Of a stretch of 64,000 nucleotides of DNA, positions 39,461-55,358 are shown piece by piece. The stretch lies in NCBI GenBank assembly GCA_001899585.1, contig MKWE01000021.1, positions 2,388 to 66,387 on the forward strand, written 5' to 3'. The stretch's first letter is position 1, and every line of letters begins with the position of its first letter. The notes below the pieces were generated by a model. That model was not told the DNA's origin, ran no database searches, and saw only the letters and a program-made list of their open reading frames with translations. Both the position numbers and the translations under genes were made by a program. The DNA is from Rhodospirillales bacterium 70-18 (GTDB taxonomy: Bacteria; Pseudomonadota; Alphaproteobacteria; Acetobacterales; Acetobacteraceae).

Positions 39461-39518
39461 TCGGATTTCCGCCACGATGGGCGTCCACAAAGCGGCCACA
39501 GCGCCACGGGAGCACGGC

Positions 39519-41647: not shown

Positions 41648-41693
41648 CGTATTGCAGTTGCGAAGGCGGCGCCGCCCGGCGCAGTCTTCGCAC

Positions 41694-44483
41694 ATGCAGC
41701 ATGCCCCTCCGCTCGCCGCCGAACTGCTCGCCCTGACCCGCCGGGTCCGCGAAAGGCTGGACGAGGACCCGTTCGGCAACCCGGTGCTCTCGGTGGCGCT
41801 GGCGATCTCGCGCCGGCTGGACCGGGGCGAGGTGGATTCCGCGGCGCTGGCCGCCCTGGTGCGCCAGTTGCGCGACGCCGCCTTCGCCGACCGCGCGGCG
41901 CGGCTGGGCGCCTATGTCGGCGGCACCGGGATGGCGGACACCCAGGCGGCGCTGCGGAGCCTGGCGGCGCGGCTGGTGCGGCCCGACCCGTCCGACAGCG
42001 CGGTGCCGCTGGCCGCCTTCCGCGCCGCCGTGGAGCGGCCGCGCTTCGCCTGCGTGTTCACCGCCCACCCCACCTTCGCCCTGCCCGCCCCGGTGTTCGC
42101 CGCCCTGGCCGACGCCGCCAGCGGCCGGGCCGGGCCGGGCTTCGCCACCCACCGGGCCACCGGCATGACGCTGGAGGCCGAGTTCGAGCAGGCGGGTGCG
42201 GCCATCACGCGCGGGCGGGACGCGCTGGACCAGTTGGCCGGCGCGCTGCTGGAGCAGGCCGCCGCCGCCTGGCCCGGCCGCTGGGCGGAACTGGCGCCCT
42301 GCCCGGTGATCCTGGCGAGCTGGGTCGGCTACGACACCGACGGGCGGACCGACATCTTCTGGTGGGACACGCTGCGCCTGCGCCTGCGCATGAAGCGGGC
42401 GCAGCTGGCCCGCCTAGCCGGCCAGCTCGCGCCCCTGCCCGCCGCGGCGGCGCTGGCGCGCGCCCAGGCCGCGCTGGCCGCCGTGGAGGCGCAGCTCGCC
42501 GCCTGCCCGGACACCCCGGACCCCGACCGCGTGGCCGCATTCGCGCATGCCCTCGTGGCCGGGCGGGAGGCGGCGTTGGTGACCACCGCGCCGCTCGATG
42601 CCCTGCTGCGCGCGGCGATCGCCGAGGCCGGCGAGGCCGACCGGCTCGGCCTGGCGGTGGCGCGCGCCGGGCTGCTGTCGCACGGCCTGTCGCTCGCGCA
42701 CACCCATGTGCGGCTGAACGCGGCGCAACTGCACAACGCGGTGCGCCAGCGCCTGCTGGCCGCCGACACACGCTTCGCCGACCCGCCGGAGGACCCTTCG
42801 CGCCGCCGCGCCCTGCTGTCGGCGATCAACGCGGCGCTGGACGCGGTGGCGCCGCTGCCGGTGGATTTCGGCGCGCTGCTGGCCGAGCAGGCCTCGGCGG
42901 CGCGGCTGATGATGACGGTGGCGCAGATCGCCAAGCACATCGACGCCGGCAGCCGCGTGCGCTTCCTGATCGCCGAGACCGAGACCGGCTATTCCCTGCT
43001 CGCCGCGCTGTGGCTGGCGCGGCTGTTCGGGGTGGAGCGGCAGGTGGAGATCAGCCCGCTGTTCGAGACCGCCGACGCGCTGGAGCATGGCGCGCGGATC
43101 GTGGAGGAGGCGCTGCGCAGCCCGCATTTCCGCGCCTATCTACGCGCCGCCGGCCGGGTGGCGCTGCAATTCGGCTATTCGGATTCCGGGCGCTATGTCG
43201 GCCAGCTCGCCGCCAGCTACCTGGTGGAGCGGCTGCGGCTGAAGCTGGGCGAGGCGCTGGCGCGGCACGGGCTGGCCGGGGTGGAGGTGGTGCTGTTCGA
43301 CACCCATGGCGAGAGCGTGGGGCGCGGCGCCCATCCGGGGGCGCTGGCCGACCGTCTGGCCTATCTGTCGCCGCCGGCCAGCCGGCATGCGCTGACCGCC
43401 GCCGGGCTGGCGGTGTGCGAGGAATCCGCCTTCCAGGGCGGCGACGGCTACCTGTTGTTCGGCACGCCGGAACTGGCGCTGGCCACGGTGGCGCGGGTGG
43501 CCGAACACGCCTTCGCGCCCGCCGCCGCGACCGCCGACCCGGTGTACGACGATCCGGATTTCGCGGCGGATTTCTTCGGCGCCAGCCGGGCGGCGATGCA
43601 GGAGTTGGTGGAGGACCCCGGCTATGCCGCGCTGCTGGGCGCCTTCGGCCCGGCGCTGCTGGACCCCACCGGCTCCCGCCCCACAACACGGCAGGCCGAC
43701 GGCATGAGCGGGCCGGCGACGATCCGCCACCCGCGCGAGCTGCGGGCGATCCCGAACAACGCGATTTTGCAGCAGCTCGGCTGGATGGCGAACACGCTGC
43801 AGGGGCTGGGTGCGGCGGCGGCGCGCCACCCGGAGGCGTTCGCGGAATTGCGCCAGTCCAGCGCCCGGTTCGGCAACGCGCTGGCGCTGGCGCGGCACGC
43901 GCTGGCCTATTCGGACCTGGACGTGCTGCGCGCGGCGGTGGCCAGCCTGGACCCCGGAAGCTGGCTGGACCGCGCCGCCCACGCCCACATCCCCGGCCGG
44001 CGCGAGGCGCTGGTGGCGGTGGCGCGGGCGCTGGAGCGGCTGGACCTGTGGGCGCCGGCGCAGGCGATGTTCCGGCGCATCCAGGCCGACCACGTGGCGT
44101 TGCGCGCCGCCTGGCCGGACGCGCCGCGCATGACCGACCGGGCGATGCTGCTGCACGCGCTGCGGCTGGCGGTGATCCATCGCATCTGGCTGCTGGCCGC
44201 CGCCATCCCGGATTTCTCGCCGCGCCACGGGGTGACCCGCGCGGCGCTGGAGGGGCGCATCCTGCGGCTGGACATCCCGCCGGCGCTGGCGGTGCTGGCC
44301 GACGTGTTCCCCGCCGCGTCGGACCCGGCGGGCGGGCGGGATTACGGCGAGCCGGCGGCGCCGCGCGCCGGCGACGCCTATGCCCGCGAGCACGCCGAGA
44401 TTTTCGTGCCGATGGCCGGGCTGTTCGCCCTGGCGCGCGAGATCTCGGCGGCGGTGACGCATGAGGTGGGGGCGTTCGGATAA
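41694..44483 (+). CDS. phosphoenolpyruvate carboxylase-family protein (divergent)
   Basis: 929 aa. Has FTAHPTF (compare TAHPTE), QFGYSDSGRY (compare GYSDSxKD) and LFDTHGESVGRGAHPG (compare FHGRGGxxGRGGxP). The C-terminus is EVGAFG rather than NTG. Confidence 0.7.
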   Translation: MQHAPPLAAELLALTRRVRERLDEDPFGNPVLSVALAISRRLDRGEVDSAALAALVRQLRDAAFADRAARLGAYVGGTGMADTQAALRSLAARLVRPDPSDSAVPLAAFRAAVERPRFACVFTAHPTFALPAPVFAALADAASGRAGPGFATHRATGMTLEAEFEQAGAAITRGRDALDQLAGALLEQAAAAWPGRWAELAPCPVILASWVGYDTDGRTDIFWWDTLRLRLRMKRAQLARLAGQLAPLPAAAALARAQAALAAVEAQLAACPDTPDPDRVAAFAHALVAGREAALVTTAPLDALLRAAIAEAGEADRLGLAVARAGLLSHGLSLAHTHVRLNAAQLHNAVRQRLLAADTRFADPPEDPSRRRALLSAINAALDAVAPLPVDFGALLAEQASAARLMMTVAQIAKHIDAGSRVRFLIAETETGYSLLAALWLARLFGVERQVEISPLFETADALEHGARIVEEALRSPHFRAYLRAAGRVALQFGYSDSGRYVGQLAASYLVERLRLKLGEALARHGLAGVEVVLFDTHGESVGRGAHPGALADRLAYLSPPASRHALTAAGLAVCEESAFQGGDGYLLFGTPELALATVARVAEHAFAPAAATADPVYDDPDFAADFFGASRAAMQELVEDPGYAALLGAFGPALLDPTGSRPTTRQADGMSGPATIRHPRELRAIPNNAILQQLGWMANTLQGLGAAAARHPEAFAELRQSSARFGNALALARHALAYSDLDVLRAAVASLDPGSWLDRAAHAHIPGRREALVAVARALERLDLWAPAQAMFRRIQADHVALRAAWPDAPRMTDRAMLLHALRLAVIHRIWLLAAAIPDFSPRHGVTRAALEGRILRLDIPPALAVLADVFPAASDPAGGRDYGEPAAPRAGDAYAREHAEIFVPMAGLFALAREISAAVTHEVGAFG

Positions 44484-44620: not shown

Positions 44621-45001
44621 TTAGCGTCGCGCCCCACCGCCGGCGCCGCCGCCCGACCCCATACCGCCCCCCGGCCCCATGCCGCCGCCGATGGCCGGCG
44701 GTGCGTCGGGCAGGGTGATGCCGCGCTGCCGCGCCCGCTCCTGCATCGCCTGGTGGTTCTCCGCGCGGATGCGGTTGCGCTCCTCGGCGGTGCGCGCGGT
44801 GCGCATGCGGGTGCGGTAGGTGTTGCGCTCGGCGGGCGTCATCAGCTGGCTGCCGTAGATCTGCTCCTCCGTCTGGGTCTGGGTTCGTGTCTGGGTCTGG
44901 GTCTGGGTCTGGGTCTGGGTCTGGGTTTGCGCCAGGACTCCGGGGGCGGCCATCGGCAGCGCGAGGGCGCCGAGCAGAATGCCGCGCGTCAACAACTTCA
45001 T
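44621..45001 (-). CDS. small secreted protein with a (TQ)n tract and a Gly/Met-rich tail (function unknown)
   Basis: AGGAG RBS. Signal peptide MKLLTRGILLGALALPMAAPGVLA/Q, then QTQTQTQTQTQTQTRTQTQT, then LMTPAERNTYRTRMRTARTAEERNRIRAENHQAMQERARQRGITLP, then GGGMGPGGGMGSGGG. Confidence 0.75.
   Translation of the reverse strand: MKLLTRGILLGALALPMAAPGVLAQTQTQTQTQTQTQTRTQTQTEEQIYGSQLMTPAERNTYRTRMRTARTAEERNRIRAENHQAMQERARQRGITLPDAPPAIGGGMGPGGGMGSGGGAGGGARR
44870..44929. repeat. hexanucleotide microsatellite (GTCTGG)n, about 10 units, 8 perfect
   Basis: Read directly. Encodes the TQ dipeptide tract on the minus strand. Confidence 0.9.
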
Positions 45002-45101
45002 GTCAGGCTCCTGTGAAAGCATCGGCTACGGCCGCCGTGAGAGCGGGGCGCGTCAGCCTCGAACGCGATGGCAGTTATTCCGCGGATCGCACGATCGCGC
45101 T

Positions 45102-45115
45102 TTGATCTGGATCAT
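45102..45115. promoter_or_regulatory. FNR/FixK-type box TTGATCTGGATCAT
   Basis: 9 of 10 matches to TTGAT-N4-ATCAA, with the same half-sites as the box at 55480. Lies in the divergent spacer between the TQ-protein gene (ATG 45001) and the first GT2 gene (ATG 45202). Confidence 0.55.
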
Positions 45116-45201: not shown

Positions 45202-46458
45202 ATGCGGCATGCGGGGAGCGCACGAATTGAGTTGCAGGATGCGACAGCGGCGGCCGCGGCATTGACCGCCGGGCAGCCCGGGACCGTGCTGGTGGACACG
45301 CGCGATGCCGCCCCGCGCGGGCTGTCGGTGATCGTGCCGATGTTCGGCACCGCGGGCTATGTCCGGGCCTGCCTGGACTCCGTCATCGCCGCCGGCAGCG
45401 GCGACATCGAACTGGTGATCGTCGATGACGGCAGCCCCGATGACTGCGCACAGGTCGCCCGCGACTGGATCGCGCGCAGCGGCGCCGCCGCGGTGCTGGT
45501 GGCCCGGCCGAATGGCGGCCTGTCGGCGGCGCGCAACACCGGCCTGCTGCATGCCCGTGGCGACTACCTCACCTTCCTGGACAGCGACGACCTGTTCGAC
45601 GGCGCGACCTATCGCCGCATGCTCGGCCTGGGCCGGGCGCACGGAGCCGACCTGGTGTTCGCCCGTGCCGTCTGCATGGATAGCCAGACCCAGAGCCTCT
45701 CGGCGTTTCCGGGCTGGGCGGTCTGGTGGGCCATCATGGGCGACCGGCCGATGCGGCGGACCACGCTGGCCCGCGAACCACGGCTGATGGGGCTGGAACC
45801 CAGCGCCACCACGCGGCTGTACCGGGCGGCGTTCGCCCGGCGGATCGGGCTGGCATTCCCGGAAGGACTGACATTCGAGGACCTGCCGGCGCATGTGCGC
45901 AGCGTCGCGCGGGCGGGCTGCATCTGCCTGCTGGGCGAGACCGGCCTGCAGTACCGGGTCGGGCGGCCGGGGCAGATCACCGCCACGCGCGGCAGCGGGC
46001 GGCAGGACAGCCTGGCGACCGCCGACATGGCGATCGGCGAGGCGCTGGCCGCGCGGCTCGGCCTGGATGCCGGCGCCTGCGCCTATGGCGGCATCGCGCG
46101 CCTGCTGTTCTGGTGCGCGCAGCACGTGGCGCGCGACGAGCGCCCGGCCTTCCTGGCGCGGGCGGCCGAGGTTCTGCGCCGCAGCCCGCCGGGCTGGGCG
46201 ACCGGCTATGCCTTCCGTTTCGCGCCGGACGAGACGGATCGCATGGCAGCGCTGGCGTTCGCGCGGGCAGACATCGTGCTGCTCGCCGAGATGGCCGAAG
46301 GGGCGGCGCCCGGGCTGCTGCGCCTCGCGGCCCGCGCCGGCCAACCGGGCATGCGCCGCCCGTTCGTGCTGCGCTGCCGTGCGGCGGCGCGCGGCTGGGC
46401 CGGGGCGGCGTGGCGCGAGGTCCGGTCTGGCCGGTTGCCGTGGCGCGGCCGATGCTGA
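45202..46458 (+). CDS. glycosyltransferase family 2 (module A, gene 1)
   Basis: LSVIVPMFG...ELVIVDDGSPDD...NGGLSAARNTGL...FLDSDD. The start at 45202 is tentative within track ORF 45130..46458. Confidence 0.82.
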   Translation: MRHAGSARIELQDATAAAAALTAGQPGTVLVDTRDAAPRGLSVIVPMFGTAGYVRACLDSVIAAGSGDIELVIVDDGSPDDCAQVARDWIARSGAAAVLVARPNGGLSAARNTGLLHARGDYLTFLDSDDLFDGATYRRMLGLGRAHGADLVFARAVCMDSQTQSLSAFPGWAVWWAIMGDRPMRRTTLAREPRLMGLEPSATTRLYRAAFARRIGLAFPEGLTFEDLPAHVRSVARAGCICLLGETGLQYRVGRPGQITATRGSGRQDSLATADMAIGEALAARLGLDAGACAYGGIARLLFWCAQHVARDERPAFLARAAEVLRRSPPGWATGYAFRFAPDETDRMAALAFARADIVLLAEMAEGAAPGLLRLAARAGQPGMRRPFVLRCRAAARGWAGAAWREVRSGRLPWRGRC

Positions 46459-47900
46459 CCCCGCCCTGGCTGCGCGAGGCGCTGAGACGGATGGAGCCCT
46501 ATGCCGGCCGCATGTGCGACGATGACGCCTGGCGGGCGCGGACCGGGTTTTTCGGCCCGGTGCGGCTGCCGCAGGCAGCATGCGGCACGCTGCTGCTGAT
46601 CGGCGCCCGCTCCGGCCTGGAGGCGGTGCTGGCGCGGATGGCCAATCCGGCGAGCCGCATTTTCGTGGTAGAGGCCGATCCGGGGCTGCGGCAGCGCATG
46701 CTGGATCTGACCGACGGGCAGGCGCGGGTGTTCGCCACGCTGGAGGCGGCGATGGCAGGCGACCTGCCGGCCGGGATCGACCTGGCGCGGATCGACCTGG
46801 CGGCGTTCAGCCCCGCCGTCGTGGCAACGCTTGCGGCCGGGCGGCGGGTGGACCATCTGTGCGGCGAGGCCAGCGAACTGGCGATGGATGCCCTGGCGCT
46901 GTACCGGCTGTGCCGGGAGCGGGTGCGCAGCTTCTACTTTCATCTCGCCGAGGCCGGCCATGCGATCGCCGGCGACCGGCCGGCGCCGGCGGTGGAGGTG
47001 TCGGTGGTGGTGCCCGCCTACAACGTCGCCGCCTGGGTGGAGGCGGCGCTGGCCAGCCTGGCGGCGCAGACGCTGCAAAGCCTGGAGGTGATCGTGGTCG
47101 ATGACGGTTCGACCGACGCGACCGGCGCGATCGCCGATGCCTGGGCGGCGCAGGACCCGGCGCGGCGGCGCGTGGTGCATCAGGCGAATGCCGGCTGCGC
47201 GGCGGCGCGCATGGCCGGACTGGCGGCCGCGCGCGGCGAGTATGTCGGCTTCGTGGACGGCGACGACTGGGCGGAGCCGCCGATGTTCGAGGAGCTGTAC
47301 CGCGCGGCGGCGCTGCGTGGCGCCGAGATCGGGCAATGCGGCTTCCATGAGGCGTTCGAGGATGGGTCCCGCCAGGATCATCCCACCGCCTGGGGCGGCG
47401 ACGGGCCCGGCGGCACGACCGGCCGGGTCGCCGATCCGCGCGCGCTGCTGCTGCTCCAGCCGTCGATCTGGCGGCGCATCTACCGGCGCGACTTCCTGCT
47501 GCGCGAGCGCATCCGCTTCCCCGAGCATATCCGCCGCTTCGACGACCTGCCCTTCGCCTTCGTCTCGCTGGCCAGGGCCGGCAGCGTCGGCATCATCCCC
47601 GATTGCTATTATGCGTATCGCCAGGGGCGCCCGGGCCAGGACATCGCCGCCCGCGACGAGCGGCTGTTCGTGCATTTCGAGATATTCGAATGGCTGCACG
47701 CCGAGATCCAGCCCTGGGCGGACGCCACGGTGCGACGGAGCTTCGCGCGGCTGCAGTTGGCGACGCACCGCTTCGCGCTCGGCCGGATCGAGCGGCGGTT
47801 GCGCCGGCGCTATCTGGGGGCGGCGGTGCGACAGATGCATGCGCTTGGCGGCGGCGGCCGGGCCGCGCTGCTGTGGCGGCTGTGGCCGGGCTGGCGCTGA
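46452..47900 (+). CDS. two-domain protein: N-terminal FkbM-like methyltransferase-fold domain (tentative) plus GT2 glycosyltransferase (module A, gene 2)
   Basis: 7-nt overlap with the previous gene. N-terminal ...LLLIGARSGLEAVL...IFVVEADPGL...IDLARIDL. GT2 part VSVVVPAYN...VIVVDDGSTD...VDGDD... Confidence 0.78.
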   Translation: MLTPPWLREALRRMEPYAGRMCDDDAWRARTGFFGPVRLPQAACGTLLLIGARSGLEAVLARMANPASRIFVVEADPGLRQRMLDLTDGQARVFATLEAAMAGDLPAGIDLARIDLAAFSPAVVATLAAGRRVDHLCGEASELAMDALALYRLCRERVRSFYFHLAEAGHAIAGDRPAPAVEVSVVVPAYNVAAWVEAALASLAAQTLQSLEVIVVDDGSTDATGAIADAWAAQDPARRRVVHQANAGCAAARMAGLAAARGEYVGFVDGDDWAEPPMFEELYRAAALRGAEIGQCGFHEAFEDGSRQDHPTAWGGDGPGGTTGRVADPRALLLLQPSIWRRIYRRDFLLRERIRFPEHIRRFDDLPFAFVSLARAGSVGIIPDCYYAYRQGRPGQDIAARDERLFVHFEIFEWLHAEIQPWADATVRRSFARLQLATHRFALGRIERRLRRRYLGAAVRQMHALGGGGRAALLWRLWPGWR

Positions 47901-47910
47901 CCGGAGGCAG

Positions 47911-49065
47911 TCAGCCGAGCGGATCGACGAAGAAGGCCGGCAGGCGGGCGCCCTCGGCCAGCATCCGCACCGCGGCCTCGCCGGCGGCCAGCGCCTCGTG
48001 GATGGTGGCGTCCATGTCCAGATAGCGATAGGTCCCCAGCCGGCCGACGAAGCTTACGCCCTCCGTCTGTCGCGCGAGGGCCACATAGTCGGCCAGGGTG
48101 GCCTGGTCGTGCACCAGGCGCACTGGGTAATACGGGGTATCGGCGGCCAGGCACTCGCGGCTGTATTCGCGGTGGCAGATGGTGTCGGCGAACTGCCCGG
48201 CCTCCCATGGGGCGAAGTGCTTGGCCTCGCTGATGCGGGTGTACGGCACGGCTTCGTCGCAATAGTTCATGACGGCGGTGCCCTGGTAGTCGCCGCTGGT
48301 CCGGAACGCTTCGAAATCCAGCGTACGGTAGCGCAACCGGCCCAGCCGACAGCCGAAATAGCGGTCGATCGGGCCGCTGTAGAACACGTGGCGGAACGGC
48401 TCGGCCAGTTCCTCGAAGCGGCAGCCGAGGCGAAGCTCCACGCCGGGCGCGTCCAGGATTGCGGCGACCAGCGCGGTATAGCCGTGCCGCGGCAGGGCCT
48501 GGAACGGATCGCTGAAATAATTGTCGTCGTAGCTGAAGCGCATCGGCAGCCGCTTGAGGATCGAGGCCGGCAGGTCGCGCGGGTCGATGCCCCATTGCTT
48601 GCGCGTATAGCCGCGGAAGAAGGCGTGGTACAGCTCGGGGCCGACCATCGCCAGGGCCTGCTCCTCGAAGCTGGCCGGCTGGGCGATGTCGTGGCGGCGC
48701 TTGCCGGCCAGGAAGTCCCGCGCCTCGGCCGGGCGCAGGGCGGTGCCGAAGAACTGGTTGATGGTGTGCAGGTTGATCGGCAGGGAATAGACGCGCCCGC
48801 CCACCGTCGCCTTCACGCGGTTGACATAGGGCATCATGGTCGCGAAGCGGTTCACGTAGTCCCACACCCGGACGTGACGGGTGTGGAAGATGTGCGGCCC
48901 GTAGCGGTGCACCATGATGCCGGTGGGCGGGTCGCGCTCGGTGTGGCAGTTGCCGGCGACGTGCGGCCGCTCGTCCAGCACCAGCACCCGATGGCCCGCC
49001 TCGGCCAGCGTGCGGGCCAGGACGGCGCCGCTGAACCCGGCGCCGACGATGCAGATGCGGCTCAC
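47911..49065 (-). CDS. glf: UDP-galactopyranose mutase
   Basis: GTG start with GTGA overlap to the upstream gene. ICIVGAGFSGAVLA...GPHIFHT...YTRKQWG...GRLGTYRYLDMD. Confidence 0.92.
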   Translation of the reverse strand: MSRICIVGAGFSGAVLARTLAEAGHRVLVLDERPHVAGNCHTERDPPTGIMVHRYGPHIFHTRHVRVWDYVNRFATMMPYVNRVKATVGGRVYSLPINLHTINQFFGTALRPAEARDFLAGKRRHDIAQPASFEEQALAMVGPELYHAFFRGYTRKQWGIDPRDLPASILKRLPMRFSYDDNYFSDPFQALPRHGYTALVAAILDAPGVELRLGCRFEELAEPFRHVFYSGPIDRYFGCRLGRLRYRTLDFEAFRTSGDYQGTAVMNYCDEAVPYTRISEAKHFAPWEAGQFADTICHREYSRECLAADTPYYPVRLVHDQATLADYVALARQTEGVSFVGRLGTYRYLDMDATIHEALAAGEAAVRMLAEGARLPAFFVDPLG

Positions 49066-50594
49066 GGGGCGGCCTCGCCGTGCCGCGCCCAGCCGTGGCG
49101 CGCCGCGGCGCCGAGCATGAGCCCGCCCGCCCGCCGCCCCATCCGCGCCGCGATCGCCAAGCACTCGGCCGGCGGCAGGTGCACGCGGTTGGCCAGGAGC
49201 TGGCGCTGGGCCCGCCGGCGGTACTCGGCGCTGAATTGCGGCTCGATGCGGCCCAGCGCCCAGAGATGCGTGTTCAACTCCACCCTCAGCAACTGCCGCT
49301 CGATCGCCGCATCCGCCCAGGTGGAGACGCGCGCGCGCAGCCAGTCGAAAATCTCGAAATGCACGAACAGCCTGTCGTCGCGGGCCAGCACGTCCTGCCC
49401 CACGCGGCCCTGGCGGTAGAAATACCAGGGGTCCGGCAGCACCGCGGTCCGCTTCGCGCGGGCCAGCGCCTCGAACTGGAACGGCAGGTCGTCGAAGCGG
49501 CGGATATGCTCGGGGAAGCGGATGTCGCTGCCCAGCAGGAAGTCGCGCCGGTAAATGCGCCGCCAAATCGTCGGGCGCAGCACCAGCATCTCCCGCACGT
49601 CGCGCACCAGGCCGGTCAGCCCGCCGGGGCCGTCGCCGCCGGCGGCGTCGCGGCAGGGGATATCGACGCCATCGGCGTGGGCCTCGACGAAGCCGCACTG
49701 GGCGATCTCGGCGCCGCCAAGCGTGGCGGCCTGGTACAGCCCCTCGAACATCCGGGCATCCGCCCAGTCGTCGCCGTCCACGAAGCCGACATACTCGCCG
49801 CGCGCAGCCGCCAGCCCGACCATGCGCGCCGAGGCGCAGCCGCCGTTCGGCTTGGCCAGCACCCGTATCCGGCCCGGGTGGCGGGCGGCCCATTCGGCCG
49901 CCCTGGCGCCGGTGTCGTCGGGCGAGCCGTCGTCGACGACGATCACCTCCAGTCGCTCGATCTCCTGGGCGGCTAGGCTGGCAAGGCAGCGGTCGATCTC
50001 GGCGCTCACGCGGTAGGCCGGCACGACGACCGAGACCTCGACCTCGACCGGGCCGGCATCGCCACCGAAGGCCAGGGGGCTGTCAGCCTCGCGCCAGAAG
50101 AAGCTGCGCGCCACCTGGTCGCGGCTGCGCCGGTACAGCGCCAGCGGGTCGATGCGGTCCGGCCGGAACAGGCCGCAGAGATGGCCCACGCCCTGCCGTT
50201 CCAGCAGCGCGAGCAGATCGACGTCGCAGAACGGGGCGTCGATGCGGGCGAAGCCGATGCCGCGCCCGCCGGCCGCCGCCAGCGCCTCCGCCACGGTGGC
50301 GACGACCCTGGCGCCAGCATGCTGGCCCAGCGCATCGGCCAGGGTGCCGCGCAGCCAGGCGTCCGGCTCGACCACCAGCACCGTCGCGGTCGGGCTGCGG
50401 TGCAGGGCGGCCAGCGCCTCCAGCCCCGATCGGCCGCCGACATAGAGCGCCGACGGCGACTCGCCGCCGGCCGCCGCATGCAGCGGGCCGTAGAACCCGG
50501 CGCGCAGCCGGGCCGCATCCTCCGCGGCCAAGCCCGCCGGCAGGGCGGCCGGCAGCGCGCCCAGCGCCGCGCGCAGCCCGCGAGGCTCGATCAT
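49062..50594 (-). CDS. two-domain FkbM-like plus GT2 protein (module B, gene 2; paralog of 46452..47900)
   Basis: Start reset to MIEPRGLRAAL at 50594. Long identical blocks with the paralog, e.g. GLAAARGEYVGFVDGDDWA, IWRRIYRRDFLL, IRFPEHIRRFDDLPF, RLFVHFEIF. Confidence 0.8.
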   Translation of the reverse strand: MIEPRGLRAALGALPAALPAGLAAEDAARLRAGFYGPLHAAAGGESPSALYVGGRSGLEALAALHRSPTATVLVVEPDAWLRGTLADALGQHAGARVVATVAEALAAAGGRGIGFARIDAPFCDVDLLALLERQGVGHLCGLFRPDRIDPLALYRRSRDQVARSFFWREADSPLAFGGDAGPVEVEVSVVVPAYRVSAEIDRCLASLAAQEIERLEVIVVDDGSPDDTGARAAEWAARHPGRIRVLAKPNGGCASARMVGLAAARGEYVGFVDGDDWADARMFEGLYQAATLGGAEIAQCGFVEAHADGVDIPCRDAAGGDGPGGLTGLVRDVREMLVLRPTIWRRIYRRDFLLGSDIRFPEHIRRFDDLPFQFEALARAKRTAVLPDPWYFYRQGRVGQDVLARDDRLFVHFEIFDWLRARVSTWADAAIERQLLRVELNTHLWALGRIEPQFSAEYRRRAQRQLLANRVHLPPAECLAIAARMGRRAGGLMLGAAARHGWARHGEAAP

Positions 50595-51775
50595 GCGTGC
50601 GCGGCTCCCCGCAGTTTCCCGCCGATGCGGCGGGCGGCGCCCAGGGCCGGGCGAGCCAGTGCGCGCAGCCCGAGCTTGACCACCGTCCGCCCCTCCGGGT
50701 GCATCGCCAGCCGCAGCCACGGCCACGGCGCGGGGCGGCGGCGGCCCGCCATGTCGTACAGCACGCGATGCGCGCCGGTGGCGAAGGCGCCAAGCAGCAG
50801 GCGCTCGCGCTCGTCGGTGGAGTAGGCGACGCGCGCCAGTCGCAGGGTTTCCGGCTCCAGCCGCCGCACCACCCCGATCGCCTCGCGCAGGAAGCGCGCG
50901 CGGTCGGCGTTGGTGACATTCTGCGCGCACCAGTAGAGCAGCCGCACCGCCTGCAGCGCGAGGTTGGCGCACGCTTCCCGCGACAGGCCGGCGGCGGCGT
51001 CGATGGCGAGCCCCACGCTGTGGATGGCGTCGAAGCGGCGGGCGCTGCGTTCGTCGGTGATCTTGCCGGGGCGGCCGACGCGGTACCAATAGCCGGTTTC
51101 GTTGAGCAGGCCGACATGCCCCGCCCTGGCCAGGCCGTGCACATGCGGGGCCATGTCCTCGAACAGCAGCCCCTCCGGGAAGGCCAGGCCGACCTGGTGC
51201 AGGAAGCTCCGCCGGATAACCCGGGGGTTGGCGTTCGGCTCCAGCCGCAGCAACCTCGGTTCCTGGTCGAGCGTCACCCGGCGAAAGCGCCGCCCGCCCA
51301 TGATGAGGTCCCAGATATGCGCGTCGTAGAAGCGCGACACGGCAAATGTATTCGATTCGAGGACGACGGAGCGGCACAGCACCACGTCGCAGGCCATGCC
51401 CTCGCCCGCCTCGGCCATCGCCGCCAGCACCGCCACGTCAGCCAGGTCGTCGCTGTCCAGGAAACCGACGAACCGGCCGCGCGCCCGTGCCAGCCCGGCC
51501 ATGCGCGCAGCCGACAGGCCGGCATTGGCCTGGTCGATCACGCAGGCCCGCATCGGGGTGTGGCGGACCCAGTCCACCGCCAGCGCGAGGCTGCCATCCG
51601 CCCCGCCGTCATGGACGATGATCACCTCGACCTGCGATAAGGGGGCGGACACCAGCGAGTCGAGCGCCTGACGCAGGTATGCCCGCGTGTTGAATACAGG
51701 AACCACAATCGACAACGACAAAGAATCGGAATTCAAATCCCAATTACTTGATGTGGCAGAGAATTTATCGAACAT
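50591..51775 (-). CDS. glycosyltransferase family 2 (module B, gene 1; paralog of 45202..46458)
   Basis: ATGA overlap with the downstream gene. SIVVPVFN...FLDSDD...GLAFPEGL.FED...YRVGRPG.IT. The ATG is at 51775; the track start at 51784 is GTG. The 5' end is visibly AT-rich. Confidence 0.8.
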   Translation of the reverse strand: MFDKFSATSSNWDLNSDSLSLSIVVPVFNTRAYLRQALDSLVSAPLSQVEVIIVHDGGADGSLALAVDWVRHTPMRACVIDQANAGLSAARMAGLARARGRFVGFLDSDDLADVAVLAAMAEAGEGMACDVVLCRSVVLESNTFAVSRFYDAHIWDLIMGGRRFRRVTLDQEPRLLRLEPNANPRVIRRSFLHQVGLAFPEGLLFEDMAPHVHGLARAGHVGLLNETGYWYRVGRPGKITDERSARRFDAIHSVGLAIDAAAGLSREACANLALQAVRLLYWCAQNVTNADRARFLREAIGVVRRLEPETLRLARVAYSTDERERLLLGAFATGAHRVLYDMAGRRRPAPWPWLRLAMHPEGRTVVKLGLRALARPALGAARRIGGKLRGAAHA

Positions 51776-51921
51776 TACAACCACCCGAGGCGATCAGTAT
51801 GAGAATTATGGGACAATAATTGATCATTGACGAAAATTTAGTCAAGTGATATTTGATTTCGTAAGATCTGAAACTTACGTGCGCGCAACAATACTTTCAT
51901 CACGTTGTGGACTACACAAAA

Positions 51922-52845
51922 ATGACAGGCGCGACCACTGCCGCAGGGGGGCAGCAGACGAACGCAGGGATATGGGCGGTCGTCGTCGCGTGCAACCGGC
52001 CGGCCGAGTTGGAGCGGCTGCTGGCCGCCATCGCGGCCCAAAGCGTGGCTGTGGATCGCGTCCTGGTGATCGACAACGGCACCAACCCCCTTGTGGCGCA
52101 GGTGGCCGCCGCACGCAGCGCCCAATACCATCGCTCGCTGCGCAACATGGGCGGCGCGGGCGGTTTCGCCCTCGGCATGCTGCTGGCGCTGGCGGGCGGC
52201 GCCAGGACCCTGTGGCTGTGGGACGACGATGGCTGGCCGGAAGGCGAGGACTGCCTGGAACGCCTGCTGGGCTGCATGGCCGCAACCGGCGGGGCCATCG
52301 TGGCGCCCCTGCTGATCAGCGCCGATGCCCCCGGCCGCGCCGCGTTCGGCTACCGGCTGAACGGGCGGACCACCTTCTCCCGCGCGGCGCTGCAACAGCG
52401 CCCCTTGCTGCATGGCATGGCCCATCTGTTCAACGGCACCGTGGTTCCGGCGACGACCGCCGACCGCTTCGGCATCCCCGACATACGGCTGTTCATCCGC
52501 GGCGACGAGGTGGATTTCCTGTATCGTGTCCTGGCCGGCGGCGGCATCGTCGCCACGGTGACGGCGGCGGTCGCGCGCCATCCCTCGGCGGAAGCGGAGA
52601 CACACAGCCTGCTGGGCGGGCGCATTTTCGCCGTGCATCCGGCCGACCCGATGCGCCGGGCGATGCTGTTCCGCAACCGGGGCTACCTGTTCCGGCGGCA
52701 CCGCCGCTGGGGCTTCCTGGCCCTGGATCATGTTCGCTACACGCTGTTCTTCATCGTGCGCCGCCGCCCCGACCTGGCCGGGTTCCGCGCCTGGTTGCGC
52801 CAGACATGGCGCGGCGTGGGCGAAAAGCTCGGTCCACCCCCGTGA
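51922..52845 (+). CDS. glycosyltransferase family 2, possibly a galactofuranosyltransferase (GlfT1-like)
   Basis: ...AVVVACNRP..L..LL..I..Q......VLVIDNGT...RNMGGAGGFALG...WLWDDD. The ATG is at 51922; the GTG at 51907 is also in frame. The Galf-specific assignment is inference from glf proximity. Confidence 0.72.
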   Translation: MTGATTAAGGQQTNAGIWAVVVACNRPAELERLLAAIAAQSVAVDRVLVIDNGTNPLVAQVAAARSAQYHRSLRNMGGAGGFALGMLLALAGGARTLWLWDDDGWPEGEDCLERLLGCMAATGGAIVAPLLISADAPGRAAFGYRLNGRTTFSRAALQQRPLLHGMAHLFNGTVVPATTADRFGIPDIRLFIRGDEVDFLYRVLAGGGIVATVTAAVARHPSAEAETHSLLGGRIFAVHPADPMRRAMLFRNRGYLFRRHRRWGFLALDHVRYTLFFIVRRRPDLAGFRAWLRQTWRGVGEKLGPPP

Positions 52846-52903: not shown

Positions 52904-54523
52904 TCAGAACTGCGAACCGAGACGGAAATACACCTCGTTGCGATCATAGCGGGCCAGCGTGACATTGGAATCCCGCAGCGTGTACCGATAATCCACGCCC
53001 AGCGTCACCTTCGGCGTCAACCGGTAGCGCAGCCCCACGGACATGTCGGCGTCGTTGTCCACCCGCGTCGCCTGAATGAAATCGCTACGGCCCCAGGCCA
53101 CGCGGGCGATGCCGGTCAGGTCCTGCGTCAGGCGCTGCTCCACCCGCCCGCCGACCACCGTGTAGATATAGCCCGGGCTGCCGGAGAGCGTCGTCTCCTC
53201 CATCGAGCGGTCGGTATAGAGGATCAGCGCGGTGCCGGAGGTGGCCTGCCACCGCAGGCTGCCATCGAAGCTCGGCGTGGTGGTGGTCTTGAACCGGGAA
53301 TCCTCGGCGTTCCGGCTCATCACGCCGACCGAGAAATCGCCCCGCACGCTGGTGGAGATGCGGAACAGCGCGCCGGCGCTGACGCGGTAACCGTCGGAGC
53401 TGCGGGCATAGCCGAAATCGTCGTACCGGCTGTTGTAGCGGCGGATATCGCCCAGCAGTTCCACGAACGGCCGGAACGCCGGATTCGCCTCGTAGCGGAC
53501 CAGCGTACCGAAGGTATAGCGCGTCCGGTTGCGATCCTGGTTGTTGATGATGCCGTTGGCGCCATCGACATTGCTGAAGGTGAGGTGCTCGATCGCGCCG
53601 CCCAGCCGGATCGAGAAATCACCGTAGCGGTGGATCACGCCGGCATAGCCGTTGCTTTCCATATATGGCGTGGGCGTGATGCCGTTCACCGCGTCGGGCG
53701 AGGAGCGGTCCTCGTGGCTGGCGATCGCGGTGGCGCCGAGCAGGATCTGCGTCTGCTGGCTGGCGTCGATCCGGCCCTCGATGTTGGCGTTCCAGTCCAC
53801 CGTGTTCTCATGCGGCGAGCGGGCATAGCCGGTGAGGTCGGTCTGCACCTCGGCGGTCAGCGAATGCCGCTCCCAGTTCGACTCCACGCTCAGCTTGGGC
53901 GAGATCGTTCCCAGCCAGTCGCTGCGGCGGCTGGTCTTGGTGGCGTAGATGTTGTCGTCGAATATCAGCGCGGACTGGATGTCGGGGTAGATGGTGAACG
54001 ACCCCACGCGGTAGCCGGGACCGCCCAGTTGCGGCGCGCCGGGCGGGGCCAGCGTGGTCTGCGCCGGGGCAGGCGGCAGCGGCCGCACGTCGGCGGCGGC
54101 CATGCGGCCAAGCTCGCTCGCCACCGCCTGGCGCACCGCCTGCGCGCTGGCCGGGGGGGCCGCGGCAGTGATACGGTCGGTGATGCCGCGATAGACCGGC
54201 ACGCTGGCGCCGATGAAGCCGCTGACCGGCGCGCCGGCGACCCGCGCCAGGGCGGCGGCGCGCGCCGGGGTGGAAGCCAGCGCCGGGTTGGCGCGCAGCA
54301 CGTCGTCCAGCGCGCGCAGCAGCGCCGCCGGCCCGTCGGCCGACGCGGTGGTGAGCTGCCGCTCCACCCCGGCATCAACGGGCTGGCCCTGCCCGTAGGC
54401 CGGCGCCAGCGTCGCTACCGCCGCGGCAACCCCGGTGCACACCGCCAGCGCCCGCAGGGCATTGGCGCCGGCGCGACCGGCTTTTCGATCGCAGGGAGTC
54501 GATTTCGTCTTGTAAGCACTCAT
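52904..54523 (-). CDS. outer-membrane beta-barrel protein (putative beta-barrel porin-2 type seen in polysaccharide loci)
   Basis: 539 aa. Signal peptide, an Ala/Pro-rich N-terminal region, then alternating-residue beta-strand patterns, ending ...YFRLGSQF with a terminal aromatic residue. Confidence 0.72.
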   Translation of the reverse strand: MSAYKTKSTPCDRKAGRAGANALRALAVCTGVAAAVATLAPAYGQGQPVDAGVERQLTTASADGPAALLRALDDVLRANPALASTPARAAALARVAGAPVSGFIGASVPVYRGITDRITAAAPPASAQAVRQAVASELGRMAAADVRPLPPAPAQTTLAPPGAPQLGGPGYRVGSFTIYPDIQSALIFDDNIYATKTSRRSDWLGTISPKLSVESNWERHSLTAEVQTDLTGYARSPHENTVDWNANIEGRIDASQQTQILLGATAIASHEDRSSPDAVNGITPTPYMESNGYAGVIHRYGDFSIRLGGAIEHLTFSNVDGANGIINNQDRNRTRYTFGTLVRYEANPAFRPFVELLGDIRRYNSRYDDFGYARSSDGYRVSAGALFRISTSVRGDFSVGVMSRNAEDSRFKTTTTPSFDGSLRWQATSGTALILYTDRSMEETTLSGSPGYIYTVVGGRVEQRLTQDLTGIARVAWGRSDFIQATRVDNDADMSVGLRYRLTPKVTLGVDYRYTLRDSNVTLARYDRNEVYFRLGSQF

Positions 54524-54575: not shown

Positions 54576-55358
54576 ATGTCAAGAACCAATAGACCCGCCG
54601 TGCGGCCGGCGCGAGTGCTGCCGGCCGTTCCGCCGCGCGATTGCGCCCTGTGCGGCGTGCGCCAGCTTGCGCTGTTCCAGTCATTTCCGCCCGACGTGCT
54701 GGGGCGCCTGAGCGTGCTGCGGCGCGGCGTGCGCATGGTGCCGGCCGGCGGGCAGATCGTGCCGCCCGGCCAGCCAGCCGCCGAGGTGTTCACCGTGTTC
54801 CGCGGCTGGGCCTTCAGTTACCGGCTGACCCACGAGGGGCGCCGCCAGATCCTGGACTTCCACCTGCCCGGCGACCTGATCGGCGCGGAGTTCCTCGCCG
54901 CCGCCCCCACCGGCGCCGGGGCCGACGCGCTGACCGCGGTGTCGCTCTGCGCGTTCGACGCCGCGCTCCTGATGCAGGCGGCGGCCGACATGCCGCCGCT
55001 GGCCGCGGCACTCACCTGGATGGTGGCGCGCGAGGAGGCGGTGCTGGCCGAACGCCTGACCGCCGTGGGCCGGCGCAGCGCCGCCGACCGTCTGGGCCAT
55101 CTGCTGCTGGAGATGTGGACGCGCCAGCGCCTGCGCGAGGGCGAGGATGGCGCGGAGTGTCGCTTCCCGCTGACCAACCAGCATATGGCCGACGTGCTGG
55201 GGCTCAGCCCGGAGCATGTCAGCCGCTCGCTGGCGCAATGGCGCCACCGGCAGCTTGCCTTCGTGGACAGCGGCCGCCTGCGCCTGCCGGACGCGGCCCA
55301 ACTGGCCGAGCTGTGCGACTGGACCCCGGGCTACCTGCATCCGCGGCCTATCCTCTAG
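54576..55358 (+). CDS. Crp/Fnr family transcriptional regulator (FNR/FixK-type recognition helix)
   Basis: Start reset to MSRTNRP at 54576. cNMP-like beta-roll. HTH ...MADVLGLSPEHVSRSLAQW carries the E--SR motif. The N-terminus has C-A-L-C but lacks the third N-terminal FNR cysteine. Confidence 0.85.
   Translation: MSRTNRPAVRPARVLPAVPPRDCALCGVRQLALFQSFPPDVLGRLSVLRRGVRMVPAGGQIVPPGQPAAEVFTVFRGWAFSYRLTHEGRRQILDFHLPGDLIGAEFLAAAPTGAGADALTAVSLCAFDAALLMQAAADMPPLAAALTWMVAREEAVLAERLTAVGRRSAADRLGHLLLEMWTRQRLREGEDGAECRFPLTNQHMADVLGLSPEHVSRSLAQWRHRQLAFVDSGRLRLPDAAQLAELCDWTPGYLHPRPIL

What the first reader, a model, noticed from the sequence alone, without database searches (positions are those of the whole stretch)
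45202..51775. Mirror-image duplication of a two-gene glycosyltransferase module converging on glf
Module A on the plus strand (GT2 then FkbM-like-GT2 fusion, overlapping by 7 nt) and module B on the minus strand (GT2 then FkbM-like-GT2 fusion, ATGA-coupled, then GTGA-coupled glf) are paralogous gene for gene. The fusion proteins share long identical blocks, such as GLAAARGEYVGFVDGDDWA, IWRRIYRRDFLL and IRFPEHIRRFDDLPF. The gene 1 pair is more diverged. This suggests an old inverted duplication followed by specialisation, for example two linkages or two sugars in a repeating Galf-containing polymer.
Basis: partly seen in the sequence, partly recalled or inferred. Interest (0 to 1): 0.6.

Follow-up and report, generated by a model that had tools for sequence, protein, structure and literature searches.

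The report
Two WbmVW-like glycosyltransferase cassettes flanking glf
Two diverged copies of a mobile two-enzyme sugar-polymer cassette, related to the pair that builds the Klebsiella O2c antigen, face each other across one galactofuranose-supply gene; the layout is real but is an ordinary variation on a known surface-glycan pathway, not a recent duplication.

Summary
A1 (45202-46458,+) and A2 (46452-47900,+) converge on glf (47911-49065,-), which is coupled to B2 (49062-50594,-) and B1 (50591-51775,-). A2/B2 share 55% identity and A1/B1 share 42%. The quoted identical blocks exist, but they are motifs conserved across the whole family.

The pair [~400-aa GT2 + ~500-aa GT2 with an extra N-terminal domain] is a rare cassette with a patchy distribution. 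It usually travels with glf and a GlfT1-like GT2. One member is the K. pneumoniae wbmV-wbmW-wbmX locus, which makes the O2c antigen.

Trees of both genes agree. A1/A2 fall in the clade that contains WbmW, and B1/B2 fall in a clade with Rhodovarius. An AU test rejects A2+B2 as sisters (p=1.5e-6). The split is therefore ancient. The two modules were most likely acquired separately, or the doubled state was lost everywhere else.

The N-terminal domain has a class-I methyltransferase-like fold with a conserved Gly-loop and Glu. It matches no Pfam family, lacks the FkbM signature residues, and occurs only in this GT family.

Most likely function: two heteromeric polymerase pairs, each making a Galf-containing disaccharide repeat. 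Export would use an unlinked Wzm/Wzt transporter.

The parts
45102..45115 (.). FNR/FixK-type box TTGATCTGGATCAT, about 87 nt upstream of the A1 start codon, in the intergenic region shared with a divergent small ORF
   Evidence: One mismatch to TTGAT-N4-ATCAA. The window has 13 near-matches against 4.7 expected; sequence. It is a consensus match only, so function is inferred.
45202..46458 (+). A1: GT2 (GT-A) glycosyltransferase, 418 aa, WbmV-like 'gene 1' of module A
   Evidence: PF00535 1.4e-27. 42% identical to B1. 34% over 330 aa to the WbmV-position gene of L098. In the tree it groups with gene-1 proteins from loci of the A2/WbmW clade. LDSDD and FEDLP motifs are present.
46452..47900 (+). 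A2: 482-aa protein with an N-terminal methyltransferase-fold domain (~1-178) and a GT2 domain plus helical C-terminus; WbmW-like
   Evidence: PF00535 3.4e-32 at residues 184-311. 55% identical to B2. 43% over 436 aa to K. pneumoniae WbmW (P0088). Same clade as WbmW.
47911..49065 (-). glf: UDP-galactopyranose mutase, last gene of the B operon and convergent with A2
   Evidence: PF03275 1.2e-70. TIGR00031 1e-90, 304.5 bits against a 303.75 cut-off. 58-66% identical to cassette-linked glf genes of K. aerogenes, L100 and Rhodovarius, but only 40-48% to glf of same-family genomes.
49062..50594 (-). B2: 510-aa protein with an N-terminal methyltransferase-fold domain (~1-182) and a GT2 domain plus helical C-terminus; WbmW-like
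   Evidence: PF00535 1.3e-29. AF2 model with pLDDT 94.1. The GT-A part matches GalT1, TarS, RmlT and TarP. 72% identical to P0007, 52-53% to Rhodovarius P0020.
50591..51775 (-). B1: GT2 (GT-A) glycosyltransferase, 394 aa, WbmV-like 'gene 1' of module B
   Evidence: PF00535 2.3e-23. 51-53% identical to gene 1 of Rhodovarius (L087) and of G222 (L097). In the B-type clade of the gene-1 tree.
51776..51906 (.). AT-rich divergent intergenic region between B1 and the GlfT1-like gene, carrying sigma-70-like promoter sites for the B1-B2-glf operon
   Evidence: Sequence. GC is 0.36-0.56 in a roughly 70% GC genome. Two promoter-like sites lie on the minus strand at 51845-51805, against 0.3 expected.
51907..52845 (+). 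GT2c: GlfT1-like galactofuranosyltransferase, 312 aa, the probable primer or adaptor enzyme; a regular companion of the cassette
   Evidence: NCBIfam NF050113 GlfT1 5.3e-71 across the full model length, but below the equivalog cut-off. Homologues sit directly upstream of gene 1 in L087, L088 and L097. A divergently transcribed 263-aa gene occupies the same position in L105, but its homology was not tested.

Best explanation
The region is an accessory locus for a galactofuranose-containing surface glycan, probably an O-antigen-type polymer of the ABC-transporter-dependent kind. It carries two anciently diverged versions of one mobile two-gene cassette.

Each cassette encodes two enzymes. One is a WbmV-like GT-A transferase (A1, B1). 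The other is a WbmW-like GT-A transferase with a family-specific N-terminal domain that has a methyltransferase fold (A2, B2).

By homology with K. pneumoniae WbmV/WbmW, each pair is inferred to act as a heteromeric polymerase. The pair would alternately add Galf and a second sugar to build a disaccharide-repeat glycan in the cytoplasm. From my own recollection of the literature, which is not in the held texts, WbmW is the UDP-Galf-dependent enzyme. On that basis A2 and B2 would be the Galf transferases, and A1 and B1 would add the second sugar.

The single glf supplies UDP-Galf to both pairs. The neighbouring GlfT1-like GT2 probably lays the Galf primer. The second enzymes, A1 and B1, are the more diverged pair at 42% identity. 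They probably differ in donor or linkage, so the two pairs would make two different repeats. These could be two glycans, or two domains of one chain as in Klebsiella O2a+O2c.

The transporter (Wzm/Wzt on contig C25), an initiating transferase and ligase-family genes are all encoded elsewhere in the genome.

The mirror layout did not arise by recent duplication. A-type and B-type cassettes separated long ago and exist singly in other taxa. The most economical history is that a second cassette type arrived beside a resident [GlfT1-like | B1-B2-glf] unit.

Shown here: gene structure, paralogy, family membership, phylogeny, distribution and fold. Inferred: enzyme specificities, polymer structure, history of acquisition and regulation.
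For: 1. Gene models, coupling and paralogy.

2. The cassette is a conserved unit.
- Rhodovarius has GT2c-g1-fusion-glf-wzm-wzt.
- A metagenomic contig, L088, has GT2c-g1-fusion.
- K. aerogenes carries the pair in an rfb-type locus next to his, with wzm-wzt-glf.
- L100 and L101 have the pair with glf.
- The closest relative of B2 has B1-B2-glf preceded by a divergently transcribed upstream gene, like the window's GT2c|B1-B2-glf layout.

3. Link to wbmVWX. In L098 the fusion homologue P0088 belongs to a cluster from the K. pneumoniae complex. It lies between a 438-aa GT2 and a pyruvyltransferase. The N-terminal part of that pyruvyltransferase, about its first 68 residues, reproduces the 'Kp WbmX' fragments printed in the SI of PMC10629545, apart from one D/N difference and one extra D that may be a transcription artefact. 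PMC10629545 and PMC9176290 state that wbmV and wbmW build the O2c backbone [->3)-b-GlcNAc-(1->5)-b-Galf-(1->] on top of O2a.

4. Identities to the Klebsiella genes: A2-WbmW 43% over 436 aa, B2-WbmW 41% over 471 aa, A1-WbmV 34%, B1-WbmV 32%.

5. Trees.
- A2 lies in the clade that contains WbmW: SH-aLRT 98 in the quick tree and 87/96 in the careful tree.
- B2 lies with P0007 and Rhodovarius, and an AU test rejects A2+B2 as sisters at p=1.5e-6.
- The gene-1 tree is congruent.

6. Natural single-chain fusions of about 880 aa have the order gene 1, N-domain, GT2. This supports the two proteins working together.

7. Rarity.
- 4 of 401 family genomes carry the cassette.
- Only the window's own genome carries it among 401 phylum-sample genomes.
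- Only this genome has two copies.

8. glf is closer to cassette-linked glf genes of distant taxa than to glf of relatives.

9. Unlinked machinery is present in the genome.
- Wzm/Wzt, with Wzm 43% identical to the Rhodovarius cassette-linked Wzm.
- Two Wzy_C-family genes.
- Two PF00953-family genes.

10. The two modules have different upstream regions.
Against: - No enzyme activity, glycan structure or expression data exist for this organism.
- The assignment of Galf transfer to the WbmW-like proteins rests on my recollection of Kelly et al. 2019 (JBC 294:10863), which was not readable here.
- L098 was identified as wbmVWX through WbmX fragments and gene order, not through the WbmV or WbmW reference sequences (GenBank MG602074.1 could not be fetched).
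- Deep branches of the fusion tree are weakly supported. The A-type clade drops to 87/96 in the careful tree, where P0014 joins it.
- Compositional bias is flagged for both window proteins.
- Four transferases could equally build a single tetrasaccharide repeat.
- No transporter, ligase or initiating enzyme is linked to the locus, so the fate of the glycan (LPS, capsule or other) is not established.
Confidence: 0.68

Rival explanations
1. Old inverted duplication inside this lineage. One cassette was duplicated in inverted orientation next to glf. The A copy then evolved faster and specialised.
For: - The modules are adjacent, mirror-oriented and gene-for-gene paralogous.
- By raw identity A2's closest sequences are P0014 (about 57%) and then B2 at 54-55%; typical A-clade members score 51-53%.
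- Both modules have native-looking GC3 of about 0.9.
- A1 and A2 sit on fairly long branches.
Against: - By bit score A2 matches at least ten foreign proteins better than B2 (454-464 bits against 365-370).
- A1 has two better hits than B1.
- Both gene trees put A and B in separate, congruent clades that include Klebsiella and metagenomic sequences.
- The AU test rejects A2+B2 as sisters at p=1.5e-6.
- The 72%-identical B relative and three family genomes show only B-type genes where enough sequence is available.
- An in-lineage duplication would have to predate the spread of both clades and then be lost everywhere else.
Confidence: 0.15
2. All four transferases, plus the GlfT1-like enzyme, cooperate on one polymer with a tetrasaccharide repeat that contains two Galf residues. 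In this view they are not two separate disaccharide polymerases.
For: - One glf, one locus and no second transporter in the genome.
- Glycan loci often hold several paralogous GT2 genes.
- All four proteins keep DxD and (E/D)D motifs.
Against: - A single pair accompanies glf in every other locus examined, and one pair is reported to suffice for the O2c backbone (PMC10629545).
- The two modules are separate transcription units with different upstream signals.
Confidence: 0.2
3. A2 and B2 are true bifunctional methyltransferase-glycosyltransferases. The N-terminal domain binds SAM and O-methylates the glycan, for example as a chain-terminating cap of the kind used in other ABC-transporter-dependent O-antigen pathways.
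For: - The AF2 model of the N-domain has pLDDT 93.5 and the full class-I methyltransferase strand order.
- All 50 top Foldseek hits in the PDB are SAM-dependent methyltransferases.
- G53 is invariant, and G57 and E76 are at least 90% conserved. They lie where motif I and the ribose-binding acidic residue lie in such enzymes.
- hhalign pairs exactly this stretch with the FkbM DAGA...FEP motif.
Against: - The Foldseek matches are weak: E about 1e-3, TM 0.33-0.49, rmsd 5-9 A.
- No Pfam hit even at E<=10 for ten diverse members.
- PF05050 finds six other genes in this genome but not A2 or B2.
- The FkbM Asp of DxGA and the EGxE of KxDxEGxE are absent.
- The published O2c repeat made by WbmVW lists no methyl group, and its terminal modification is reported as pyruvate (PMC9176290, PMC10629545).
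- In the ~880-aa single-chain fusions the domain lies between two GT modules, as a scaffold would.
Confidence: 0.2

Closest known systems
Klebsiella pneumoniae WbmV/WbmW (wbmVWX locus, O2c antigen)
   Same: - Two adjacent GT-A/GT2 genes of the same sizes and order.
- The second gene carries the same N-terminal extra domain.
- A2 is 43% identical to WbmW and lies in its clade; A1 is 34% identical to WbmV.
- Both depend on a glf gene.
- Export by Wzm/Wzt is inferred.
- The cassette is mobile: it is plasmid-borne and lies next to prophage genes in Klebsiella.
   Different: - Two cassettes are present instead of one, arranged convergently around glf.
- No WbmX-type pyruvyltransferase was found among the neighbouring genes.
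- No O2a-type base-glycan genes (wbbMNO) are present. A GlfT1-like GT2 is adjacent instead.
- The host is a high-GC Acetobacteraceae bacterium.
- The sugars and linkages are unknown.
Single-cassette loci in Rhodovarius crocodyli and related Acetobacteraceae (GT2c-g1-fusion-glf-wzm-wzt)
   Same: - B1, B2, GT2c and glf are 49-66% identical to the Rhodovarius genes.
- The gene set is the same, and B1-B2-glf are translationally coupled.
   Different: - In the window GT2c is inverted relative to B1.
- wzm/wzt are on another contig.
- A second, A-type cassette has been added.
Mycobacterial galactan synthesis (Glf, GlfT1, GlfT2)
   Same: - UDP-Galf is supplied by Glf.
- A GlfT1-like GT2 enzyme is present as a probable primer.
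- Further GT-A enzymes polymerise in the cytoplasm on a lipid carrier.
   Different: - Here polymerisation is by two-protein pairs that probably alternate Galf with another sugar. There is no single bifunctional GlfT2 making a Galf homopolymer.
- No GlfT2-type protein is present in the window.
FkbM-family methyltransferases (Pfam PF05050, Methyltransf_21)
   Same: - Class-I methyltransferase-type fold.
- A G-A-x-x-G loop after strand 1.
- An acidic residue followed by Pro/Asp after strand 2 (VVEPD against AFEPxP).
- An (R/K)-x-D motif on strand 4.
   Different: - No HMM match.
- hhalign probability is 2.7%.
- The conserved Asp before the glycine loop and the EGxE motif are missing.
- The domain occurs only fused to this GT family.

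Membership tests
WbmV/WbmW-type GT-A pair (K. pneumoniae O2c polymerase cassette) | Two adjacent GT2 genes: gene 1 of about 390-440 aa, gene 2 of about 480-520 aa with an extra N-terminal domain | tested here: met
   Both modules have this architecture. The same architecture is seen in L098, where wbmV is 438 aa and wbmW is 487 aa.
WbmV/WbmW-type GT-A pair (K. pneumoniae O2c polymerase cassette) | Full-length sequence homology to WbmW and WbmV | tested here: met
   A2-WbmW 43% over 436 aa (6e-133). B2-WbmW 41% over 471 aa. A1-WbmV 34% over 330 aa (1e-64). B1-WbmV 32% over 365 aa. Caveat: L098 was identified as wbmVWX from WbmX fragments printed in the SI of PMC10629545 and from gene order, not from the deposited V and W sequences.
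WbmV/WbmW-type GT-A pair (K. pneumoniae O2c polymerase cassette) | UDP-Galf dependence (a linked or available glf gene) | tested here: met
   glf is translationally coupled to B2 and reaches the TIGR00031 cut-off. Actual use of the donor was not tested.
WbmV/WbmW-type GT-A pair (K. pneumoniae O2c polymerase cassette) | Works within an ABC-transporter-dependent (Wzm/Wzt) pathway | tested here: inconclusive
   The window has no transporter. A single wzm/wzt pair lies on contig C25, with Wzm 43% identical to the Rhodovarius cassette-linked Wzm. A functional link is not shown.
WbmV/WbmW-type GT-A pair (K. pneumoniae O2c polymerase cassette) | Alternating GlcNAc and Galf transfer that gives the O2c repeat; the two proteins interact | not testable with these tools
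   This needs enzymology and glycan structure work. Indirect support for partnership comes from natural single-chain fusions of the two genes.
Glycosyltransferase family 2 (GT-A fold, PF00535) | HMM match above the curated cut-off, a DxD motif and a GT-A fold | tested here: met
   PF00535 scores 83-112 bits against a 23.3 cut-off for all four proteins. LDSDD or VDGDD motifs are present. The B2 model matches GalT1, TarS, RmlT and TarP at E 1e-17 to 1e-14.
FkbM methyltransferase family (PF05050) | Profile HMM match | tested here: not met
   No hit at E<=0.01 for the full proteins or at E<=10 for ten N-domains. A six-frame search of the genome with PF05050 finds six other loci but not A2 or B2.
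FkbM methyltransferase family (PF05050) | Signature residues: Asp of DxGAxxG and KxDxEGxE | tested here: not met
   The N-domain consensus is LxxGARSG (no Asp) and VRVDxxxF (no EGxE). hhalign aligns only 38 columns, at 2.7% probability.
Class-I SAM-dependent methyltransferase fold | Seven-stranded Rossmann-like topology with a glycine-rich loop after strand 1 and an acidic residue after strand 2 | tested here: inconclusive
   The AF2 model (pLDDT 93.5) has the expected order of strands and helices. All top 50 PDB matches are methyltransferases, but at E about 1e-3 and TM 0.33-0.49. G53, G57 and E76 are conserved. SAM binding was not tested.
Recent in-situ (inverted) gene duplication | The paralogues are each other's closest relatives | tested here: not met
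   Bit-score ranking, the trees and the AU test at p=1.5e-6.
UDP-galactopyranose mutase (Glf) | Equivalog HMM at or above its cut-off, and an FAD-binding N-terminus | tested here: met
   TIGR00031 304.5 bits against 303.75. PF03275 1.2e-70. NAD_binding_8 1.6e-20.

The most novel reading that the evidence does not exclude
The locus makes a two-domain (block) Galf glycan in which the A pair conditionally caps or extends the polymer made by the B pair. The switch would be an FNR/FixK-type regulator acting through the box upstream of A1, a low-oxygen counterpart of the thermoregulated O2a-to-O2ac conversion in Klebsiella. In addition, the family-specific methyltransferase-fold domain would be a previously undescribed module. 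It would be either a docking scaffold that assembles the two GT-A enzymes into a heteromeric polymerase, or an active SAM-dependent enzyme.
Probability: 0.15. Interest if true: 0.55.

Novelty: new member of a known kind. Interest (0 to 1): 0.3.

Why it matters
It connects an uncharacterised Acetobacteraceae glycan locus, and a rare protein family, to the experimentally studied Klebsiella O2c polymerase pair WbmV/WbmW. The N-domain search found only 23 clusters among 1.84 billion representative proteins.

It also shows that this pair is a mobile cassette that usually travels with glf across Proteobacteria.

A genome carrying two diverged cassettes offers a natural comparison for mapping what sets donor and linkage specificity in the WbmV-like partner. 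It could also help test the role of the conserved methyltransferase-fold domain of WbmW-like enzymes.

Beyond that, this is a routine example of diversification in a surface-glycan locus.

Tried and rejected
- The pattern scan of genome contigs with B2 was dominated by the generic GT2 motif EVIVVDDG. It returned unrelated GT2 genes and was useless for synteny. Contexts were obtained with the look-up of encoding contigs and the genome search instead.
- Kelly et al. 2019 (JBC), which assigns the WbmV and WbmW activities, is not held. No held paper states the individual activities.
- dN/dS (NG86) gave dS of 0.65-0.92. Third-position identity is 0.48-0.58 against 0.40-0.42 expected by chance at about 90% GC3. 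The values are biased and near saturation, so I did not interpret them.
- I considered gene conversion between A2 and B2 because of the 77-83% identical DNA blocks. I set it aside because those blocks coincide with motifs conserved across the family and the trees separate A2 from B2.
- The 943-aa upstream protein is not related to the 814-aa protein upstream of the Rhodovarius cassette.
- WbmW has no match in the phage genome collection, although in L098 it lies beside portal and terminase genes.
- Sequence search of the PDB finds nothing for the N-domain.

Full report
**Observation**

The window has about 70% GC, so many spurious ORFs appear. Third-position GC frame analysis and translations resolve five real genes in 45202-51775.

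| Gene | Coordinates | Strand | Length | Junction |
|---|---|---|---|---|
| A1 | 45202-46458 | + | 418 aa | |
| A2 | 46452-47900 | + | 482 aa | 7-nt overlap with A1 |
| glf | 47911-49065 | - | 384 aa | |
| B2 | 49062-50594 | - | 510 aa | GTGA junction with glf |
| B1 | 50591-51775 | - | 394 aa | ATGA junction with B2 |

The stop codons of A2 and glf are 10 nt apart, and no terminator-like hairpin lies between them.

All four transferases match PF00535 far above its cut-off. glf reaches the TIGR00031 equivalog cut-off. A2 and B2 are 55% identical over 449 aa, and A1 and B1 are 42% identical over 370 aa. Only the 'FkbM-like' label is not backed by sequence.

**Setting**

A BBP2_2 outer-membrane barrel gene lies at 52904-54367, which points to a Gram-negative organism. 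One family-level relative has a contig of the same length (654,452 bases) as the Rhodovarius crocodyli contig found through the protein database. That places the genome in the Acetobacteraceae.

The neighbouring genes are:
- a 4,6-dehydratase/epimerase at 39477-40490;
- a PseC/ArnB-like aminotransferase at about 40676-41647;
- an odd 943-aa protein at 41652-44483 that resembles only the centre of PEP carboxylase;
- a small repeat-encoded ORF at 44621-45022;
- a GlfT1-like GT2 at 51907-52845 (NF050113, 5.3e-71, full model length but below the cut-off);
- a Crp/FNR-family regulator at 54615-55358.

The window has no transporter, initiating transferase or ligase. The genome does carry a single wzm/wzt pair on contig C25, with Wzm 43% identical to the Wzm that follows glf in Rhodovarius. 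It also has two Wzy_C-family genes and two PF00953-family genes elsewhere.

**The pair is a conserved, mobile cassette**

B2 has about 100 full-length homologues of roughly 500 aa, which cover the N-terminal domain as well. They come from Acetobacteraceae, Betaproteobacteria, Dyella, Serratia and Klebsiella. In seven of the eight other loci examined, the fusion gene is immediately preceded by a gene-1 homologue.

| Locus | Source | Layout |
|---|---|---|
| L087 | Rhodovarius | GT2c-g1-fusion-glf-wzm-wzt |
| L088 | metagenome | GT2c-g1-fusion |
| L090 | K. aerogenes, rfb-type locus next to his | wzm-wzt-glf-...-g1-fusion |
| L096, L097 | two other family genomes | g1-fusion (L097 also GT2c; L096 also glf nearby) |
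| L100, L101 | metagenomes | pair with glf |
| L105 | 72%-identical relative of B2 | B1-B2-glf preceded by a divergently transcribed gene, as in the window; homology of the upstream genes was not checked |

In some bacteria the two genes are fused into one protein of about 880 aa, in the order gene 1, N-domain, GT2. This is classic evidence that the two products act together.

The family is rare and patchy:
- 4 of 401 genomes of the family carry it;
- among 401 genomes sampled across the phylum, only the window's own genome carries it;
- neither of the two same-genus genomes carries it;
- only this genome has two copies.

The window's glf is 58-66% identical to cassette-linked glf genes of Rhodovarius, L100 and Klebsiella. 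It is only 40-48% identical to the glf genes of ten same-family genomes. glf therefore appears to travel with the cassette.

**Link to a characterised system**

In locus L098 the fusion homologue P0088 belongs to a 122-member cluster from the K. pneumoniae complex, K. michiganensis and Raoultella. It sits between a 438-aa GT2 and a PS_pyruv_trans gene, and portal and terminase genes lie beside it.

The pyruvyltransferase begins MKINLVGAVGGGNFGDEFILNCCIAEHIKNKDAKVS...FSVENHSLNFFNILDNLRQ. This reproduces the 'Kp WbmX' fragments printed in the alignment of the SI of PMC10629545. There is one D/N difference and one extra D in the printed text that may come from PDF extraction.

That paper describes a three-gene locus, wbmVWX, in which WbmV and WbmW are the glycosyltransferases needed for the O2c backbone. 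PMC9176290 gives the repeat as [->3)-b-D-GlcpNAc-(1->5)-b-D-Galf-(1->], attached to the end of O2a, and notes that the genes lie outside the rfb locus. The 487-aa middle gene is therefore WbmW and the 438-aa gene is WbmV.

The same wbmW is found at >=99% identity on 19 Klebsiella plasmids.

From my own knowledge of Kelly et al. 2019 (JBC 294:10863), which could not be read here, WbmV is the GlcNAc transferase, WbmW is the UDP-Galf-dependent enzyme, and the two interact.

**Age and origin of the two modules**

By bit score, at least ten foreign proteins match A2 better than B2 does (454-464 bits against 365-370). Two foreign proteins match A1 better than B1 does.

- In a 98-sequence maximum-likelihood tree, A2 falls in a 13-member clade with WbmW (SH-aLRT 98). 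B2 falls in a different 13-member clade with P0007 and Rhodovarius (SH-aLRT 97).
- A careful 48-sequence tree keeps the separation, with the A2 clade at 87/96.
- An AU test rejects A2+B2 as sisters (delta lnL 136, p=1.5e-6).
- The gene-1 tree is congruent. A1 groups with gene-1 proteins of loci of the A2/WbmW clade (83/93). B1 groups with those of B-type loci (91/96).

The cassette therefore diverged as a unit, long before the present genome existed. The B side is the canonical arrangement seen elsewhere. The A side is the addition.

The quoted identical blocks, and the DNA inverted repeats at 77-83% identity, coincide with motifs conserved across the whole family. They say nothing about recency. 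Synonymous sites are near saturation under about 90% GC3, so dN/dS is not usable.

**The N-terminal domain**

The full B2 model has pLDDT 94.1 and pTM 0.93. Its GT-A part matches GalT1, TarS, RmlT and TarP.

The N-domain modelled alone has pLDDT 93.5. It shows the full class-I methyltransferase order of strands and helices. All top 50 PDB matches are SAM-dependent methyltransferases, but the matches are weak (E about 1e-3, TM 0.33-0.49).

G53 is invariant, and G57 and E76 are at least 90% conserved. They lie where motif I and the ribose-binding acidic residue are expected.

Against a true methyltransferase assignment:
- No Pfam family matches, even at E<=10.
- PF05050 finds six other genes in this genome but not A2 or B2.
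- hhalign against those FkbM proteins aligns only the motif I to strand 2 stretch, at 2.7% probability.
- The FkbM signature Asp and the EGxE motif are missing.

A phmmer search of 1.84 billion representative proteins finds only 23 proteins with this domain. All but two are 420-590-aa proteins with the domain at the N-terminus; the others are a 956-aa protein with it internal, as in the single-chain fusions, and a marginal 725-aa hit.

The published O2c repeat is not methylated. In the single-chain fusions the domain lies between the two GT modules. I therefore favour a structural or docking role, possibly with residual nucleotide binding, over active methylation. This remains open.

**Mechanism proposed**

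A GlfT1-like enzyme primes a lipid-linked acceptor with Galf. B1+B2 then polymerise a Galf-containing disaccharide repeat. A1+A2 make a second, different repeat, because the more diverged gene-1 partners probably differ in donor or linkage. The upstream amino-sugar genes may supply A1's donor, although this is speculative. Both pairs draw UDP-Galf from the shared glf. The product is exported by the unlinked Wzm/Wzt.

The two modules are separate transcription units.
- B1-B2-glf lies behind an AT-rich region with sigma-70-like sites.
- A1-A2 lies behind an FNR-type box at 45102-45115.

Conditional expression of one repeat is therefore possible, in the way O2ac is conditionally expressed in Klebsiella (PMC9176290). 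Everything beyond homology, context and fold is inference.

**Verdict**

The mirrored arrangement is real, and the old paralogy is real. It is better described as two anciently diverged WbmVW-type cassettes sharing one glf than as a duplication in this genome. It is a new member of a known kind, with modest interest.

Noticed in passing
window 41652-44483 (+): A 943-aa protein matches only the central ~220 residues of PEP carboxylase (Pfam 1e-18, NCBIfam 1.8e-20, PDB 1fiy 3e-11). It lies directly after a sugar 4,6-dehydratase/epimerase and a PseC/ArnB-like aminotransferase. This is an unusual neighbour for a glycan locus. It is unrelated to the 814-aa protein upstream of the Rhodovarius cassette.
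   Followed up: partly
window 44621-45022 (-): A small ORF contains a (TCTGGG)n hexanucleotide array at 44860-44937. It has no Pfam or NCBIfam match and is divergent from A1.
   Followed up: no
window 45102-45115 and 55480-55493: FNR/FixK-type boxes (TTGAT-N4-ATCAT), each with one mismatch to the consensus. The window holds 13 near-matches against 4.7 expected. One box lies upstream of A1, none lies upstream of B1, and a Crp/FNR-family regulator gene is at 54615-55358.
   Followed up: partly
window 51700-51906: A strikingly AT-rich patch (GC down to about 0.36) covers the first codons of B1 and the B1|GT2c intergenic region, in a roughly 70% GC genome. It has two sigma-70-like promoter matches on the minus strand.
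   Followed up: partly
P0095, P0102, P0111 (Allorhizobium sonneratiae), P0112, P0304: Natural single-chain fusions of 876-956 aa join a gene-1-type GT2, the methyltransferase-fold domain and the second GT2. These are Rosetta-stone evidence that the two cassette genes work together.
   Followed up: partly
L098 1130-5093; plasmid hits H1-H12: The K. pneumoniae-complex wbmV-wbmW-wbmX locus lies directly beside P2-like phage portal and terminase genes. wbmW also occurs at >=99% identity on 19 Klebsiella plasmids. No match was found in the phage genome collection.
   Followed up: partly
G000 C25:7356-9061 (-): The genome's only detected wzm/wzt pair stands alone, between a monooxygenase gene and a small lipoprotein-like gene, with no other glycan genes nearby. 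Wzt is short (257 aa) and has no extra C-terminal domain.
   Followed up: partly
L090 (K. aerogenes) 2184-11485: An rfb-type locus next to the his operon contains wzm-wzt-glf, a GT2, a GT1 and a GlfT2_N-like 584-aa protein, followed by a gene-1/fusion pair. This suggests a two-polymerase Galf O-antigen in K. aerogenes too.
   Followed up: no
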